Source of the DNA: a virus
Lineage: Duplodnaviria > Caudoviricetes
DNA length: 64,000 nucleotides
Virus record (IMG/VR): IMGVR_UViG_2671180244_000004
Coordinates: 69,202-133,201 of that record
Strand: one strand, 5' to 3'
How positions within the stretch are numbered: the stretch's first letter is position 1; every line of letters starts with the position of its first letter. This document shows positions 3,338 through 24,723 of the stretch, piece by piece. The notes under the pieces were generated by a model. It had not been told where the DNA came from. It made no database searches and saw nothing but the letters and a program-made list of their open reading frames with translations. Both the position numbers and the translations under genes were made by a program.

Positions 3338-4558
3338 ATGATTGATCCAATTAAATTGAAACGTCACTCTGATGAAAATTTGAAGCAGTGGAAACTTCGG
3401 ATTTGCGAGAACTATAAGGAATATGGTCTTAGTAACTGGAATGAAGTCGCTGATGTGATTAACAAGGAAACTGGTGACAAAAAAGGTGAATCGGCTTATC
3501 GTAAATGGTTTACTAACTTCAATGAAGGTCGTGACTATCAAAAAGAAGTTGTCGCTGAAGAAAACGGAGCAATTGTTGAACTTGAACTGAAGAAAATTGA
3601 AGTGATGGAAGAACGGAAAAAGCTTCAAGCTATGAAGAATGAAATCCACAAAAAAACGAGGATCAAAGGCAGAAATGAATTAATGTACGAACATGTTACT
3701 GCTGCTATTGAGAATCAACCTTCTCTCCCTCTCCCCTCTTTCAAAGTATTACAACCCAACCACAAACAAAGAGCTGCGATCTTAGGTTTTGGAGACGAGC
3801 ACTTTGGTAAAGAATTCAAAAGTTTGAATAATGAATACAACGAACAAATCTACCTTGAAAGAATGGCTCAGCTATTAAGTGACACGGTTGAATGTATTCA
3901 AAAAGAGTCCTTAAATGAACTCGTGGTCTTAAATGGTGCTGATAGTGTTGAAGGTATGGCTTTACGTGTTTCTCAATTAACGCCTTTGCAATATGGCTTT
4001 ATGGATCAAGTAATTAAATATTCACGTTACAAAGTTGAGTGGCTAAAAGAGCTATCTAAATATGTGAAGATTAAATACATACATATCCCCTCTGCTAACC
4101 ACACAGAACTAAGACTACATGGGACAAGTCGTGGTGAAATGCCTAAAGAAGATGTTGAACGCATTATTGCAACATACATTCATGACATGCTACAAGAAAA
4201 CAATCGAATTGAAGTACCGCTTTATGATGATGGCATTGTTGATTTTAATTTACTAGAGTTTGAGATTGTTGCTTGTCATGGACATCAGATTAAGAATAAA
4301 AAGAATGCTATACGTGATCTTTCACAGCTGAAAAGAAAATTCTATGACTATATGTATATTTCACATTTCCATCATGGGAACATGCTGACTGTTGGTGAAG
4401 CAGCTGGTCATAACGTACAAGTGATCCAACTCCCTTCTGTGATGGGATCAGATGAGTATAGTGACAGCTTAATGACTGGTGCAAAAGCTGGTGCTAACCT
4501 AACGATATTCGAATCTGGCAAAGGAAGAACAATTCAGTACGATTACATACTTAATTAA
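3338..4558 (+). CDS. yonJ: Metallophosphoesterase-domain protein, YonJ-like
   Basis: GDEHFG, ANH, HGH and SHFHH calcineurin-like motifs; synteny. Confidence 0.8.
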   Translation: MIDPIKLKRHSDENLKQWKLRICENYKEYGLSNWNEVADVINKETGDKKGESAYRKWFTNFNEGRDYQKEVVAEENGAIVELELKKIEVMEERKKLQAMKNEIHKKTRIKGRNELMYEHVTAAIENQPSLPLPSFKVLQPNHKQRAAILGFGDEHFGKEFKSLNNEYNEQIYLERMAQLLSDTVECIQKESLNELVVLNGADSVEGMALRVSQLTPLQYGFMDQVIKYSRYKVEWLKELSKYVKIKYIHIPSANHTELRLHGTSRGEMPKEDVERIIATYIHDMLQENNRIEVPLYDDGIVDFNLLEFEIVACHGHQIKNKKNAIRDLSQLKRKFYDYMYISHFHHGNMLTVGEAAGHNVQVIQLPSVMGSDEYSDSLMTGAKAGANLTIFESGKGRTIQYDYILN

Positions 4559-4602
4559 TCATTACTTATAGGGTTGCGACCAATCGCTACAAAGGAGAAA
4601 AA

Positions 4603-4992
4603 ATGAAAACTATTGAATTTGTCAAAAAAAGTATCGCTGATACAATTCTTGAAATCGAGCATAAGTTCAATGAAAAGAAACTTCCGTATGTAGAGATTAA
4701 AACATTAGTTAAATCTGCAAAAGAATTTGCTTCAGTATTAAATCCCTCTTTAAATGTTGAGCAAAGAATGAAGCATTCTGATTTTCTCAATGCAACTTTA
4801 GAAAAGCTATGTAAAATTGAAATTGATCTACAAATCTCTATAGCAAATTCCCTATCAAAAAAAGATTATAAGGCTCACTTTGCCCTCTCTAATACTTATA
4901 AAGATGTCGTTGAACTTAAAAAACAACTTTATGTACCTATTGTCTTTGAAACTGGTGGATGGAGTAAGTGTAATTTAGTTAGTTTGCTATAA
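4603..4992 (+). CDS. Hypothetical phage protein
   Basis: AAAGGAG RBS, 129-aa ORF. Confidence 0.7.
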   Translation: MKTIEFVKKSIADTILEIEHKFNEKKLPYVEIKTLVKSAKEFASVLNPSLNVEQRMKHSDFLNATLEKLCKIEIDLQISIANSLSKKDYKAHFALSNTYKDVVELKKQLYVPIVFETGGWSKCNLVSLL

Positions 4993-21574: not shown

Positions 21575-21713
21575 AATCCCTCTTTTATTCAGAATCAAGA
21601 TCCTTCTTATGAGGGATTTTGCTTATGATTGAAGTAAAATGTAAAAAAAGAAGGTAATTTATCCTATCATGTCGAAATGTTCTTATATAGAATAATGATA
21701 GGAGAGAAAAAAG

Positions 21714-22214
21714 TTGCATTCCATTGGTATTAGAGTTTTAACCAAAAGAAAAGAATCAAAAGGGAAAATATTTTTTGCAGTAATCGAGATCGAGAATGGC
21801 AATCTAAATTTAATTAGAACATCCAGTATTACAATTCCAGCCTCTCTAGAAGTTCCAGAACAGTTGGCATATATAAGAACGAATCTTCTAGCACTAATGA
21901 AAGAATTTAACGTTAAATTCGCTGGGTTAAGAATTGTTGAGGGATCTGCGAACACTCAAATTTCATACCGGAAAAATATTGAGGGAGTTATCCAAGAGCT
22001 TTTTGCAAATAGTGAGATTAAAGCTTATGATCTATTGCTAATTAATAAATTCGCAAGAATATTTAGCAAAAGTACTGCTGAAATAAAAAGCGTAATCGAA
22101 GGCGAACTTGATTTTGCTGGCATCTCGAAAGAAGAGTGGAAATCGCATCCTAAAGAAATTAGAGAAAGCATTCTGGCTAGCCTTTCAATTGTCTCATGGG
22201 GGGAAGCTGTATGA
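21714..22214 (+). CDS. RuvC/RNase H-fold-like protein, first catalytic Asp apparently replaced
   Basis: SIGIR beta1, FAVIE, GLRIVE, EGVIQ pattern resembles RuvC-like resolvases. Confidence 0.55.
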   Translation: MHSIGIRVLTKRKESKGKIFFAVIEIENGNLNLIRTSSITIPASLEVPEQLAYIRTNLLALMKEFNVKFAGLRIVEGSANTQISYRKNIEGVIQELFANSEIKAYDLLLINKFARIFSKSTAEIKSVIEGELDFAGISKEEWKSHPKEIRESILASLSIVSWGEAV

Positions 22215-23263
22215 TAACTTATACTGACACTATTTTAAAACTAGAGCTCAAAAAAGAAATTGGGGTTGAGGGTAGAAACTCAACTGTTCATATAGCTTAT
22301 GACCCTCAGCTAGATACCGATTTAGTAATAAAGAAAATAAGTAAAACTGATTTCACAAAAGTTGAGGAATATTTCACCGAAGCTCAAATGCTTTATTTTA
22401 CACAGCACCCCAATATAATGCCAGTAAAGTATGCCTCACAGGATGAGCAAAATGTATATATTGCGATGGAATTTATGGAAAAAGGTTCTCTTAACAGCCT
22501 TATAGAAGAGCGCTTCTTAACACCTAGGGAAATAATTAAAATATCTTTAGAATTCCTTTCTGGTATACACTTTATGCATGCAAAGAAACTTGTGCACTTT
22601 GACATAAAACCAACAAACATCTTAATTAACAATGCTAACAAAGCGATCGTAACTGATTTTGGTACAAGTAAATATTTAAATGATTTTGGTTTAGCAAGAC
22701 CTGATAAATTATACAGTCTACACATCCCTCCAGAAAAATTCGATTTTGGGCACTTCTCATTCTTTAGTGACATTTACCAGGCCGGTCTTACAATATATAG
22801 AATGTGCAATGGCAACAAATTTTTCATCGAACAGCTAACAGACTTGAACCTAAAAAATGCAGAAGAACTTGCTGATGCTATTTCTTCCAACAAGTTTCCT
22901 AATAAGAAAATGTTTCTTCCGCATATTCCAAAAGAATTAAGAAATATTATAATTAAATCACTTTCGATAAATGTTGAGAATAGATACCAAAGTGTTTTGG
23001 AAATGATGAATGATCTTGCTAAACTTGAAAATAAGTTAGATTGGGGTTACAATGAAACAACAAACACACATTCGATTGTTTCGTATAAAACAGAAAACCA
23101 CATATCAGAAGTTACTATTCTAAGAAGTGAATTAGGTGAATGGTATACTGAAGGGTATAAAATAAGACTAGTCGATGGCAAACGAACAAAAATACATAAA
23201 TTCTTTATTAAAAATTTAAAAACCAGGCAAGAAGCTTTTGAAGCAGTCTTCAAAATTCTTTAA
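22211..23263 (+). CDS. Hanks-type Ser/Thr protein kinase
   Basis: VIKK, HFDIKPTN, DFG, PPE and SDIYQAG motifs; ATGA overlap with upstream gene. Confidence 0.93.
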   Translation: MITYTDTILKLELKKEIGVEGRNSTVHIAYDPQLDTDLVIKKISKTDFTKVEEYFTEAQMLYFTQHPNIMPVKYASQDEQNVYIAMEFMEKGSLNSLIEERFLTPREIIKISLEFLSGIHFMHAKKLVHFDIKPTNILINNANKAIVTDFGTSKYLNDFGLARPDKLYSLHIPPEKFDFGHFSFFSDIYQAGLTIYRMCNGNKFFIEQLTDLNLKNAEELADAISSNKFPNKKMFLPHIPKELRNIIIKSLSINVENRYQSVLEMMNDLAKLENKLDWGYNETTNTHSIVSYKTENHISEVTILRSELGEWYTEGYKIRLVDGKRTKIHKFFIKNLKTRQEAFEAVFKIL

Positions 23264-23286
23264 TTCAAGAAAGGTGGGAATGAGTC

Positions 23287-23469
23287 ATGGGTTTTGAACT
23301 CAAATTGAATACTAAGAAAAACAATACAGCTCCATACCCCCTTTGCACCTTGAAAGAAAGATTGATTAAAGATAAAGCAGTAGATATGAGGAATAATTAC
23401 CGAATAATTGATTTGGAAAATGGTTTTGTTAAAGTAGTACCAATTGATGAAAATAAATTAGTTAGATAA
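23287..23469 (+). CDS. Small hypothetical protein (60 aa)
   Basis: AAAGGTGG RBS; followed by a terminator-like hairpin. Confidence 0.55.
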   Translation: MGFELKLNTKKNNTAPYPLCTLKERLIKDKAVDMRNNYRIIDLENGFVKVVPIDENKLVR

Positions 23470-23552
23470 ACCTCACTTAACATGGGGTTTTTCTATGTCA
23501 TCATTTAACAACTTTCCCCTGCTGCCGATAATTCTGTTGAGGTGGTAAAGGA

Positions 23553-24071
23553 ATGAGTTGGTACCCGTTCAAAAATTTTAGGGAAAAGAAAGCTGCTATA
23601 AAAAAGTTTAAAAACGAAGAGTTCAACAAAGCAAATCTTAGGAATAACTTAGTGAGCATGAAAACAAATGTGTTCGTTGAATATTTAGAATTTCACTTCT
23701 CTCTCGATGGACAGAAGTATCGATCTTATAGAAGTAAGCTTCGAGTAATAAATTCACTTGAAGAAGAAGTGCTGCTGATAGCCATTTCGAGAATTAAGGG
23801 GTTTGAAAAGGTATATGAAACTAAGTATATTACTTTCTATGTCGGTGCTATTCTCACAGCTGTAATACAAGTATTAACAACATTCGGCAATTTGTTTCCT
23901 GGTTACACTATTGTTGTTAGCCTTATTGTTATGGCTTTTTCCATTTTAACATTAAAGTTATTTTTAAATTTAATGATTAAGGATAAAAAATTCATAGCTG
24001 TGCTTATCTCATTTAGAGATTTATTAGAGAAAACTCTAGACAGAAAGAACCTGCTAGATGAAAGTGATTAA
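23553..24071 (+). CDS. Two-TM membrane protein, paralogue 1
   Basis: Two hydrophobic segments in the C-terminal half; GAGGTGG RBS. Confidence 0.75.
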   Translation: MSWYPFKNFREKKAAIKKFKNEEFNKANLRNNLVSMKTNVFVEYLEFHFSLDGQKYRSYRSKLRVINSLEEEVLLIAISRIKGFEKVYETKYITFYVGAILTAVIQVLTTFGNLFPGYTIVVSLIVMAFSILTLKLFLNLMIKDKKFIAVLISFRDLLEKTLDRKNLLDESD

Positions 24072-24177: not shown

Positions 24178-24723
24178 ATGCTATTTAAGTTATTGGAAAA
24201 AATATATGAAAAGAAATTCGAAAGGGAGATAGCTGATTTCAAGGACGAGGATTTCAATGCATACAACCTGAAACGTAATTTGGTAACCATGAGTTCAGTG
24301 TCTCTTACTAACTATTTAACACTCCATTTCCCAAGAAATGGGCAGGGGTATTCTAAACATAAAAGAAAATTTGAAAAAATTAAATCATTGGATCAAGAAG
24401 ATATATCGGCTGCAATTGCAAGAATGGATAGGATCAATCATGTTAATGATCAGAAGAGATTCTTCTTCTTTATTGGAGCGCTGTTTACAATTATCGCTAC
24501 TGTAATAGCTACTATTCTTAGAAAAATAAAATTCGATCCTGATGCATCCAATTTAGAAATTGTTGCAACTATCTCTATGGTATACACTATCCCCATTATT
24601 ATTTATCTGATGTTTTCATGGGCTGTGATAATGGACAGCTTAAACAAAGCAACAGTTAATTATTTTAAGGACTTGCTTATCCTTGCAAGAGATGAGAAAA
24701 AGAATGATATTGAAATTGATTAG
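24178..24723 (+). CDS. Two-TM membrane protein, paralogue 2
   Basis: Shares FN..NL..NLV.M and YL..HF...GQ.Y motifs and an identical RBS block with 23553. Confidence 0.75.
   Translation: MLFKLLEKIYEKKFEREIADFKDEDFNAYNLKRNLVTMSSVSLTNYLTLHFPRNGQGYSKHKRKFEKIKSLDQEDISAAIARMDRINHVNDQKRFFFFIGALFTIIATVIATILRKIKFDPDASNLEIVATISMVYTIPIIIYLMFSWAVIMDSLNKATVNYFKDLLILARDEKKNDIEID

What the first reader, a model, noticed from the sequence alone, without database searches (positions are those of the whole stretch)
21714..23263. RuvC-fold protein plus Ser/Thr kinase operon: candidate undescribed prophage defence or toxin-antitoxin system
Seen: two translationally coupled genes (ATGA overlap) inserted after the yomM terminator. 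The second is an intact non-RD Hanks kinase (HFDIKPTN, DFG) with no TM segment and an extra C-terminal domain of about 80 aa. The first resembles the RuvC/RNase H fold but has GIR where active resolvases have GID. Known: stand-alone kinases such as staphylococcal Stk2 cause abortive infection, and prophage hotspots carry defence genes. Inference: the RuvC-like partner senses nucleic acid structures or inhibits the kinase, which triggers growth arrest on infection. I do not recognise the pair as a named system.
Basis: partly seen in the sequence, partly recalled or inferred. Interest (0 to 1): 0.75.

Follow-up and report, generated by a model that had tools for sequence, protein, structure and literature searches.

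The report
Bacillus prophage copy of Stk kinase cassette
This SPbeta-like Bacillus prophage carries a three-gene cassette (a RuvC-shaped protein without the nuclease's key residue, a protein kinase and a tiny basic protein) related to the kinase locus that lets Shiga-toxin phage 933W lysogens abort infection by a rival phage, so it is probably an anti-phage system whose two partner genes have never been studied.

Summary
Gene A (21714-22214, RuvC fold, GIR in place of GID) overlaps gene B (22211-23263, intact non-RD Hanks kinase with an extra C-terminal domain) by ATGA. Both sit behind the yomM terminator.

The pair is not unrecognised. B is 42% identical to Stk of phage 933W, and A is 30% identical to the gene just upstream of stk. 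Citing papers describe Stk as an HK97-triggered exclusion/abortive-infection kinase.

The A-B order is fixed in both directions:
- 17 of 17 genomic loci found with A have the kinase next to it.
- 45 of 45 viral contigs with a family kinase have A directly upstream.
- The same 41 phage records hold both genes.
- A small ORF follows the kinase in 63 of 64 loci.

A has a confident RuvC fold (Z 18.1), but the first catalytic Asp is Arg in 109 of 111 relatives.

Best reading (0.65): a Bacillus member of the Stk phage-exclusion cassette. The roles of A and C are inferred only.

This scan reached the same three-gene conclusion earlier on 933W-type prophages in other genomes.

The parts
21596..21621 (+). 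Terminator-like hairpin after the yomM homologue. It forms the upstream boundary of the cassette.
   Evidence: Found by the terminator scan. It matches the stem_loop annotated after yomM in SPBc2.
21622..21713 (+). Intergenic leader with the presumed cassette promoter and the SD of gene A. A possible -10 (TAGAAT, 21688-21693) was read by eye, not by a tool.
   Evidence: AGGAG lies 9 nt before the TTG start. RNA-library contigs of two studies begin at 21701 and 21707, which is a weak hint only. The consensus scan listed no promoter here.
21714..22214 (+). Gene A: 166-aa RuvC-fold protein without the first catalytic Asp. It is a relative of 933W L0083 (ST933Wp23).
   Evidence: PHROG 3875, E 2e-24. 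30% identical to 933W p23, E 2e-19. AF2 pLDDT 93.8. Z 18.1 to T. thermophilus RuvC. R7 in 109 of 111 relatives.
22211..23263 (+). Gene B: 350-aa Hanks-type kinase (non-RD) with a C-terminal beta/alpha domain. It is a relative of 933W Stk.
   Evidence: Pkinase, E 5e-38. PHROG 2361, E 6e-72. 42% identical to 933W Stk. Catalytic residues are invariant in 70 relatives. Model pLDDT 90.7.
23287..23469 (+). Gene C: 60-aa basic protein (pI 9.5), the conserved third gene of the cassette.
   Evidence: ORF and SD. A homologue lies directly after the kinase in 22 loci by profile. A small ORF lies in the same position in 63 of 64 loci.
23468..23490 (+). Terminator-like hairpin overlapping the stop of gene C. 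It forms the downstream boundary.
   Evidence: Terminator scan.

Best explanation
The stretch is a self-contained three-gene accessory operon (A-B-C, bounded by two hairpin terminators) in the variable slot after yomM of an SPbeta-like prophage. It is a Bacillus member of the cassette that holds stk in Shiga-toxin phage 933W.

By homology (inferred), the kinase B is the effector. It stays largely silent in the uninfected lysogen, is switched on by a component of a superinfecting phage, and phosphorylates cellular and/or phage proteins so that the infection aborts.

A is a RuvC-derived pseudo-nuclease with Arg in place of the first metal-binding Asp. C is a tiny basic protein. Both are obligatory partners. 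I infer that they are regulatory subunits: A as the sensor or scaffold that couples the trigger to the kinase, and C as a small inhibitor or adaptor.

Shown here: the gene anatomy, the homology to the 933W genes, the fold and residue changes of A, the intact catalytic set of B, and the fixed A-B-C order across phyla.

Not shown: any binding, any trigger, any phenotype in Bacillus.
For: Homology to the 933W cassette:
- B is 42% identical to 933W Stk over 296 aa (E 2e-77).
- A is 30% identical to the gene directly upstream of stk (E 2e-19).
- The gene order in 933W is A, stk, a 54-aa ORF, then a terminator.

Known function of Stk: it is described as activated on HK97 infection, involved in phage exclusion, with little activity in uninfected cells (passage in PMC3681748). 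It is described as an Abi that blocks HK97 (passage in PMC6356687).

Obligatory linkage:
- 17 of 17 genomic loci found with A hold the kinase directly downstream. 15 are intact, one is frameshifted and one is a remnant.
- 45 of 45 viral contigs with a family kinase (>=347 bits) hold A directly upstream, and 0 of 4 with weak kinases do.
- In the phage collection, 41 records hold A and the same 41, by organism tally, hold a kinase of >=40% identity. The other 23 kinase records (24-30% identity) have no A.

Coupling:
- The A-B gap is -8 to +16 nt in 64 loci, and 32 of them overlap.
- A 46-86 aa ORF starts -11 to +53 nt after the kinase stop in 63 of 64 loci.
- A and B distances correlate (Mantel r 0.84, 0 of 2000 permutations, 47 loci). 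This shows co-inheritance only.

State of the two enzymes:
- B keeps K41, E57, H129, D131, K133, N136, DFG, D187 and R258 in all 70 aligned relatives.
- A has the RuvC fold (Z 18.1, rmsd 2.9, 150 aligned). At the GID position it has R in 109 and S in 2 of 111 relatives.

Context:
- It is prophage cargo. It is absent from the 14 other SPbeta-like records that share the yomM terminator and present in SPbetaL6 and SPbetaL7.
- Elsewhere it lies behind Peptidase_S24 repressor-like genes (L039, L045), next to an integrase (L045) and next to a LlaJI-like restriction enzyme (L013).

RNA: one 1691-nt contig of an RNA library spans A, B and the start of C without a break (21701-23375, 92% identical).
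Against: - No function was tested for this cassette or for any Gram-positive member.
- The 933W evidence was seen only in citing passages. Neither Friedman 2011 nor Tyler and Friedman 2004 is held, so I cannot say whether stk alone sufficed in their experiments. If it did, A and C may be dispensable for exclusion.
- Unlike 933W, the cassette here is not in the repressor operon. It lies in the late/tail region on the late-gene strand, so expression in the lysogen is not established. The RNA-library contig may be DNA carry-over and comes from a 92%-identical relative.
- PADLOC has no model for A or C. It matches B only at kinase-domain level, to mad6 and PD-T4-6.
- C is not detectably similar to the 933W small ORF. 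The small-protein groups of different phyla are not significantly alike (hhalign P 0.003-0.5).
- No fused A-B form was found (weak evidence).
- The A family is not consistently basic (median pI 6.3), which speaks against a conserved DNA-sensor role.
Confidence: 0.65

Rival explanations
1. The cassette is a kinase-toxin addiction or toxin-antitoxin-like module. B is a growth-arresting kinase toxin held in check by a labile partner (C or A). The module stabilises the prophage, or fires when host gene expression is shut off, without a specific phage trigger.
For: - The small genes are tightly coupled, with overlapping or abutting reading frames.
- C is small, basic and fast-evolving, as many antitoxins are.
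- Two degenerate cassettes have lost the kinase but kept A and C (L010 remnant, L008 frameshift). This pattern is expected if the kinase is the costly part.
Against: - Citing papers describe 933W Stk as activated specifically by HK97 infection.
- There is no antitoxin-type DNA-binding domain in A or C.
- A three-gene order with the putative antitoxin last is unusual (established knowledge, not tested).
- This reading overlaps with abortive infection rather than excluding it.
Confidence: 0.13
2. The kinase serves the prophage's own development, not defence. It could be a host-takeover or anti-defence kinase made during lytic growth, as described for the phage T7 kinase. It could instead be a lysis-lysogeny regulator like the Pf kinase-kinase-phosphatase module.
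For: - In this prophage the cassette lies among late/tail genes on their strand, between yomM and the tape-measure region, not beside a repressor.
- Phage kinases with such roles exist (titles and abstracts of PMC13645617 and PMC11341870 in the listing).
Against: - The cassette has its own hairpin terminators on both sides.
- It is absent from most SPbeta-like phages, so it is not part of the conserved developmental programme.
- In 933W and phi24B, stk is reported as pRM-controlled and expressed in stable lysogeny, and unchanged on induction (passages in PMC3430580 and PMC4651098).
- In two viral contigs it follows a Peptidase_S24 repressor-like gene on the same strand.
Confidence: 0.14
3. Gene A is an ordinary, active phage Holliday-junction resolvase, as the PHROG and RefSeq labels say, and merely lies beside the kinase.
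For: - The PHROG 3875 label is 'RuvC-like Holliday junction resolvase'.
- RefSeq and phi24B name it the same way ('res').
- It has the full RuvC fold.
Against: - The first catalytic Asp is never present: R in 109 and S in 2 of 111 relatives.
- Pfam RuvC does not reach its cut-off. The window protein gives no hit, and a relative scores 21.2 against a cut-off of 22.2 bits.
- The gene is found only with this kinase: 17 of 17 and 45 of 45 loci.
- In 933W it lies in the lysogen-expressed immunity operon, where a resolvase has no obvious task.
Confidence: 0.03

Closest known systems
Stk cassette of Shiga-toxin phage 933W (L0083 / ST933Wp23, stk / ST933Wp22, 54-aa ORF ST933Wp21). Stk is the HK97-triggered exclusion kinase of Friedman et al. 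2011 and Tyler and Friedman 2004. Both papers were seen only as citations.
   Same: - The three positions are the same and in the same order.
- The kinase is 42% identical and the RuvC-like gene 30% identical.
- The A-B reading frames overlap in both.
- A small basic ORF follows the kinase in both, and a terminator follows that.
- Both are carried by a temperate phage.
   Different: - The host phylum and phage type differ: an SPbeta-like siphovirus of Bacillus against a lambdoid phage of E. coli.
- The slot differs: after yomM in the late region with its own terminators here, against the cI/pRM operon.
- There is no DUF3024 gene here.
- The small proteins are not detectably similar.
- The kinase C-terminal domains did not align beyond residue 293.
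- No experiment exists for this member.
PD-T4-6 (single-gene Ser/Thr kinase defence in PADLOC-DB) and mad6 of the MADS system
   Same: The Hanks kinase domain matches their profiles: mad6 E 5e-41, PD-T4-6 E 2e-36, over residues 9-282. 933W Stk matches them equally.
   Different: - The matches cover the kinase domain only.
- These systems, as modelled in PADLOC, have no RuvC-like or small partner. A and C hit nothing.
- mad6 is a 659-position profile from a multi-gene system.
Staphylococcal Stk2 abortive-infection kinase (Depardieu et al. 2016; seen only in a reference list)
   Same: It is a stand-alone cytoplasmic Hanks kinase that causes abortive infection when a phage protein triggers it (recalled from the literature).
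   Different: - No sequence comparison with Stk2 was made here.
- As far as I recall, Stk2 is described without RuvC-like or small partner genes.
Bacterial RuvC Holliday-junction resolvase (PF02075; PDB 4ld0, 6lw3)
   Same: - The fold matches over the whole length: Z 18.1, rmsd 2.9, 150 of 158 residues aligned; Z 17.4 to P. aeruginosa RuvC. Foldseek gives E 8e-8.
- The N-terminal G-I-x strand and the G-V helix motif align.
   Different: - Identity is 8-12%.
- Arg replaces the first catalytic Asp in 109 of 111 relatives.
- The residue at the end of strand 4 is always Arg or Lys.
- The family has its own invariant R86, E90 and E95.
- It is not consistently basic.
- It always lies beside the kinase.

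Membership tests
933W-type Stk cassette | Kinase homologous to 933W Stk | tested here: met
   42% identity over 296 aa, E 2e-77. Both proteins match PHROG 2361 (RefSeq label).
933W-type Stk cassette | L0083-like RuvC-fold gene directly upstream, with coupled reading frames | tested here: met
   30% identity, E 2e-19. The overlap is ATGA here and 7 nt in 933W.
933W-type Stk cassette | Small ORF directly after the kinase | tested here: inconclusive
   The position, size (60 against 54 aa) and basic charge are shared. There is no sequence similarity. hhalign between the Firmicutes-type and 933W-type groups gives P 0.019.
933W-type Stk cassette | Location in the repressor (cI/pRM) operon, expressed in the lysogen | tested here: not met
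   Here the cassette follows yomM and a terminator, with no repressor beside it. Expression in the lysogen is not known. There is only an RNA-library contig from a relative.
933W-type Stk cassette | Kinase activated by a superinfecting phage, giving exclusion or abortive infection | not testable with these tools
   For 933W this is known only from citing passages. It needs a phage challenge in Bacillus.
Hanks-type (eukaryotic-like) protein kinases, PF00069 | Pfam score above the gathering threshold and the catalytic residues (VAIK Lys, alphaC Glu, HxDxKxxN, DFG, APE-like, alphaF Asp) | tested here: met
   131.3 bits against a cut-off of 31.7. K41, E57, H129, D131, K133, N136, D149-F-G151, D187 and R258 are invariant, and P174 and E175 are at >=90%, in 70 sequences. 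The kinase domain scores Z 30 to JAK2 JH1, tied within 1 Z with CaMKII and Aurora-A.
RuvC Holliday-junction resolvases, PF02075 | RuvC/RNase H-like fold over the whole protein | tested here: met
   pLDDT 93.8. Z 18.1 and 17.4 to two RuvC structures. Foldseek E 8e-8.
RuvC Holliday-junction resolvases, PF02075 | Catalytic acidic residues, beginning with the Asp of the N-terminal G-I-D motif | tested here: not met
   Global hhalign puts R7 on the Asp of GID. Position 7 is R in 109 and S in 2 of 111 relatives, never D or E. The counterpart of the second residue (Glu) is ambiguous: R/K73 by the local alignment, E76 by the global one.
RuvC Holliday-junction resolvases, PF02075 | Pfam gathering score | tested here: not met
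   The window protein has no PF02075 hit at E<=0.1. The Sphingobacterium relative reaches 21.2 bits against a cut-off of 22.2.
PD-T4-6 (PADLOC) | Match to a PD-T4-6 kinase profile as a single-gene system | tested here: inconclusive
   The best PD-T4-6 profile gives E 2e-36 over 264 of 327 positions. PADLOC's own thresholds and system rules were not run. The gene is never alone.
Type II toxin-antitoxin systems | Toxin neutralised by a cognate labile antitoxin, usually with a DNA-binding domain that autoregulates the operon | not testable with these tools
   No antitoxin-type domain was found in A or C. Neutralisation needs an experiment.

The most novel reading that the evidence does not exclude
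The known 'single-gene' Stk defence is in fact an obligate tripartite machine conserved from Bacillota and Bacteroidota to Proteobacteria.

In this reading a catalytically dead RuvC dimer acts as the sensor. It is either a decoy for phage proteins that target junction-resolving enzymes or a reader of phage recombination intermediates. It brings two kinase molecules together for activation through the invariant activation-loop Tyr168. The tiny basic protein C holds the kinase off until infection.

This would be a new way of wiring a pseudo-nuclease to a eukaryotic-like kinase in bacterial immunity. It would be directly testable in B. subtilis.
Probability: 0.3. Interest if true: 0.7.

Novelty: new member of a known kind. 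Interest (0 to 1): 0.5.

Why it matters
Stk of phage 933W is one of the oldest examples of a eukaryotic-like kinase used for phage exclusion, and it is treated as a single gene.

This window shows the same cassette in an SPbeta-like Bacillus prophage. Together with the related loci, it shows that the kinase never travels without a RuvC-shaped pseudo-nuclease, and almost never without a tiny basic protein.

If these partners are the sensor and the brake of the kinase, they explain how such a dangerous enzyme is kept silent and how it recognises infection.

A Bacillus subtilis-compatible member makes this easy to test genetically, away from a pathogen background.

It also shows that current annotation ('RuvC-like Holliday junction resolvase', 'res') is probably misleading. 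Defence finders would report only a lone PD-T4-6-like kinase.

Tried and rejected
I tried no other route to a complex.

I had meant to use it to ask whether kinases found by sequence have A beside them.

The search for related loci with the 111-sequence alignment A2 failed for lack of a conserved stretch. The closer alignment A1 was used instead (2 loci).

A profile of A against PDB sequences found nothing at E<=10. Only fold comparison shows the RuvC relation.

A search for longer, fused forms of A found none. The tool itself calls this weak evidence.

An iterated profile search for the small protein C did not extend beyond the 22 Firmicutes-type loci. Profile-profile comparisons between the five small-protein groups gave P 0.003-0.5, so homology of C across phyla is not shown. 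A recurring R-x(n)-P-[YF] pattern and a C-terminal aromatic were seen by eye only.

The automatic pick of the small ORF is wrong in two loci. In L008 it took the frameshifted kinase tail; the true C is at 4472-4672. In L035 the profile hit is at 4055-4264.

The ESM Atlas gave no usable hit for residues 272-350. Foldseek's top rows (AMPK alpha, CaMKII holoenzyme) have long alignments of 380-470 columns that may include a regulatory domain. Their rmsd of about 23 means nothing can be concluded, and VIA rows span only residues 5-276.

The promoter scan listed no site in the leader 21622-21713.

RNA runs X1 and X3 gave only short contigs, and parts without cover mean nothing.

Papers:
- Friedman et al. 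2011 (by DOI), Plunkett et al. 1999 and Tyler and Friedman 2004 are not held.
- The detail that HK97 gp53 is the trigger is recalled, not seen.
- PMC3342100 holds none of the terms stk, kinase or resolvase.
- Searches that found no paper describing the RuvC-like partner or a three-gene Stk system. The library lacks most subscription journals, and I did not ask for supplements, so this is not proof that it is unpublished.
Full report
**What is there**

The window is the right half of a 133-kb IMG/VR provirus record of the SPbeta type.

- The gene before the finding is 86% identical to SPBc2 YomM.
- The hairpin at 21596-21621 matches the stem-loop annotated after yomM in SPBc2 and in 13 other SPbeta-like records.
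- Gene A follows (21714-22214, TTG start with AGGAG 9 nt upstream, 166 aa).
- Gene B (22211-23263, 350 aa) overlaps A as ATGA.
- None of the three proteins has a hydrophobic segment.

The unit is therefore a three-gene operon between two terminator-like hairpins.

**The kinase**

B matches Pfam Pkinase (131 bits, cut-off 31.7, residues 12-260) and PHROG 2361 'serine-threonine kinase' (E 6e-72).

In an alignment of 70 relatives the following are invariant: the VAIK lysine (K41), the alphaC Glu (E57), H129-x-D131-x-K133-x-x-N136, D149-F-G151, D187 and R258. P174-E175 are above 90%.

- The glycine-rich loop is atypical but fixed (E20-G21-x-N23-S24 invariant).
- One activation-loop tyrosine (Y168) is invariant.

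The AlphaFold2 model (pLDDT 90.7) shows a kinase domain up to about residue 276, then a separate domain of six short strands and a terminal helix (279-349).

The kinase domain aligns best with JAK-family tyrosine-kinase domains (Z 30.0, rmsd 2.2, 263 residues). CaMKII and Aurora-A lie within one Z unit, so this does not settle substrate specificity. The C-terminal domain was not tested on its own.

**The RuvC-like protein**

A has no Pfam or PADLOC match but matches PHROG 3875 'RuvC-like Holliday junction resolvase' (E 2e-24).

A profile search of 1.84 billion representatives found 362 relatives at E<=1e-3. Nearly all are stand-alone proteins of about 150-175 aa.

The model built on 111 of them is confident (pLDDT 93.8, pTM 0.90). 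It superposes on bacterial RuvC over its whole length:

- T. thermophilus RuvC: Z 18.1, rmsd 2.9, 150 residues.
- P. aeruginosa RuvC: Z 17.4.
- Foldseek: E 8e-8.
- Viral RuvC-type resolvases follow in BFVD.

At sequence level the link is faint:

- The Pfam RuvC model reaches 21.2 bits (cut-off 22.2) on the Sphingobacterium relative.
- hhalign against five genomic RuvC proteins gives P 7e-4 locally.

The global alignment puts G5-I6-R7 on RuvC's G-I-D. Across the 111 relatives:

| Position | Residues |
|---|---|
| 7 | R 109, S 2; never acidic |
| 73 (end of strand 4) | R 89, K 22 |
| 76 | E 108 |
| 151 | E 107, D 4 |
| G5, R86, E90, E95 | invariant |

Which residue corresponds to RuvC's catalytic Glu is ambiguous (R/K73 or E76). 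I could not inspect coordinates.

The first metal-binding Asp is certainly gone, so canonical RuvC catalysis is unlikely. The family's median pI is 6.3 (range 4.5-9.6), against 8.0-9.6 for the five RuvC proteins.

**The link to a known system**

A tblastn of A against 50,697 phage records found 41 records:

- SPbetaL6 and SPbetaL7 (73% identity).
- 39 Stx or Escherichia phages, including 933W (30% identity over 72% of A).

In 933W the hit is ST933Wp23 (L0083), the gene directly upstream of stk. It lies in the operon cI - DUF3024 - L0083 - stk - 54-aa ORF - tM.

- A against L0083: 30% identity, E 2e-19.
- B against Stk: 42% identity over 296 aa, E 2e-77.
- The two small ORFs are not alike.

What the literature says about Stk:

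- It is described as an abortive-infection system blocking HK97 (passage in PMC6356687).
- stk is reported to be under pRM control and expressed in stable lysogeny (passage in PMC3430580).
- stk and 'res' (the phi24B name of A) are among the genes unchanged on induction (passage in PMC4651098).
- The primary papers are not held.

**Linkage of the three genes**

Starting from A, a scan of one genome per species found 17 loci: 9 Bacillota, 7 Bacteroidota and 1 alphaproteobacterial MAG. All 17 have the kinase directly downstream. Fifteen are intact, L008 is in two frames and L010 is only a remnant.

Starting from the kinase, a scan of IMG/VR found 49 loci. Of these, 45 have a kinase scoring at least 347 bits on the family profile, and all 45 have A directly upstream on the same strand. 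The other four have weak kinases (38-54 bits) and no A.

In the phage collection, the 41 records with A and the 41 with a kinase of >=40% identity have identical organism tallies. The 23 further kinase records (24-30% identity) have no A. The listings showed 40 of 41 and 60 of 64 rows.

Over 64 loci (L010 dropped for lack of a start):

- The A-B gap is -8 to +16 nt, and 32 are overlaps.
- An ORF of 46-86 aa begins -11 to +53 nt after the kinase stop in 63 loci. The 64th is cut by the contig end but holds a partial C.

The C of this window has profile-detectable homologues in 22 loci, all Bacillota-type plus one Bacteroidales. The small ORFs of the other groups are equally basic (pI about 10) but not significantly similar.

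Pairwise distances of A and B correlate (Mantel r 0.84, 0 of 2000 permutations, 47 non-identical loci chosen by hand). This shows co-inheritance, not interaction.

**Context**

The cassette is cargo.

- Fourteen SPbeta-like records share only the yomM end and terminator with this window. SPBc2 has yomL, yomK and yomJ in the slot.
- Of 20 neighbouring ORFs scanned in 12 other loci:
  - two are Peptidase_S24 repressor-like genes upstream on the same strand (L039, L045);
  - one is a tyrosine integrase (L045);
  - one is a serine resolvase (L009);
  - one is a LlaJI-like restriction enzyme (L013);
  - three are HNH endonucleases, and a fourth match is below the Pfam cut-off;
  - one is a ParB-methylase;
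  - one is a helicase;
  - one is a baseplate protein;
  - one has only sub-threshold HTH matches;
  - seven have no family.

**Expression**

One contig of an RNA library (run X2; 1691 nt, 127 differences) covers 21701-23375 without a break. It spans A, B and the first 89 nt of C. It begins 13 nt before the A start, with adapter letters beyond. A contig of run X3 begins at 21707. This fits one transcript starting near 21700, behind a TAGAAT that I read by eye at 21688-21693. Contigs cannot prove transcription, and the source is a 92%-identical relative.

**Reading**

The best-supported explanation is that this is a Bacillus member of the Stk cassette and works as a phage-triggered kinase that aborts infection (confidence 0.65).

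The effector role of B rests on its intact catalytic set and on homology to Stk. The roles of A (pseudo-nuclease sensor or scaffold) and C (small brake or adaptor) are inference from obligatory linkage only.

Rivals are a toxin-antitoxin-like addiction module (0.13), a kinase serving the prophage's own development or counter-defence (0.14), and an active resolvase that merely sits beside the kinase (0.03).

**Novelty**

The kinase defence is known, so the finding is a new member of a known kind.

The searchable literature does not describe the fixed three-gene architecture or the dead-RuvC partner.

Earlier reports of this scan on 933W-type prophages in other genomes reached the same three-gene conclusion. 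I saw them after searches had given it independently.

This window adds a Gram-positive, SPbeta-borne member outside a repressor operon.

Noticed in passing
window 23553-24071 and 24178-24723: Two paralogous genes lie directly after the cassette (37% identity over 95 aa, E 2e-20). Each has a strongly hydrophobic C-terminal half and no Pfam, PADLOC or PHROG match. They may be further accessory or exclusion genes in the same variable slot.
   Followed up: partly
L001:3502-3843 (phage 933W, DUF3024 gene upstream of the cassette): The DUF3024 protein of the 933W immunity operon matches the PADLOC candidate defence model PDC-S43 over its full length (E 4e-41). It is absent from this window, so it looks like a separate passenger.
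   Followed up: partly
L008:3391-4433 and L010:4560-4826: These are degenerate cassettes. The Desulfitobacterium MAG has the kinase in two frames. The uncultured Clostridium locus keeps A and C but only residues 23-109 of the kinase.
   Followed up: no
window 22211-23263, kinase residues 20-24 and 168: The family has a fixed atypical glycine-rich loop (E-G-x-N-S invariant) and an invariant activation-loop tyrosine. The nearest solved kinase domains are JAK tyrosine kinases, though tied with CaMKII and Aurora-A.
   Followed up: partly
L013:2310-3968: In Flavobacterium qiangtangense the cassette lies directly behind a LlaJI-like restriction endonuclease gene (E 3e-10). This suggests a defence-island setting outside prophages.
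   Followed up: no
window 21701-23375: An RNA-library contig of a 92%-identical relative, from a run labelled fungus metagenome, spans A, B and the start of C. It ends in adapter letters at 21701. A second run's contig starts at 21707.
   Followed up: partly
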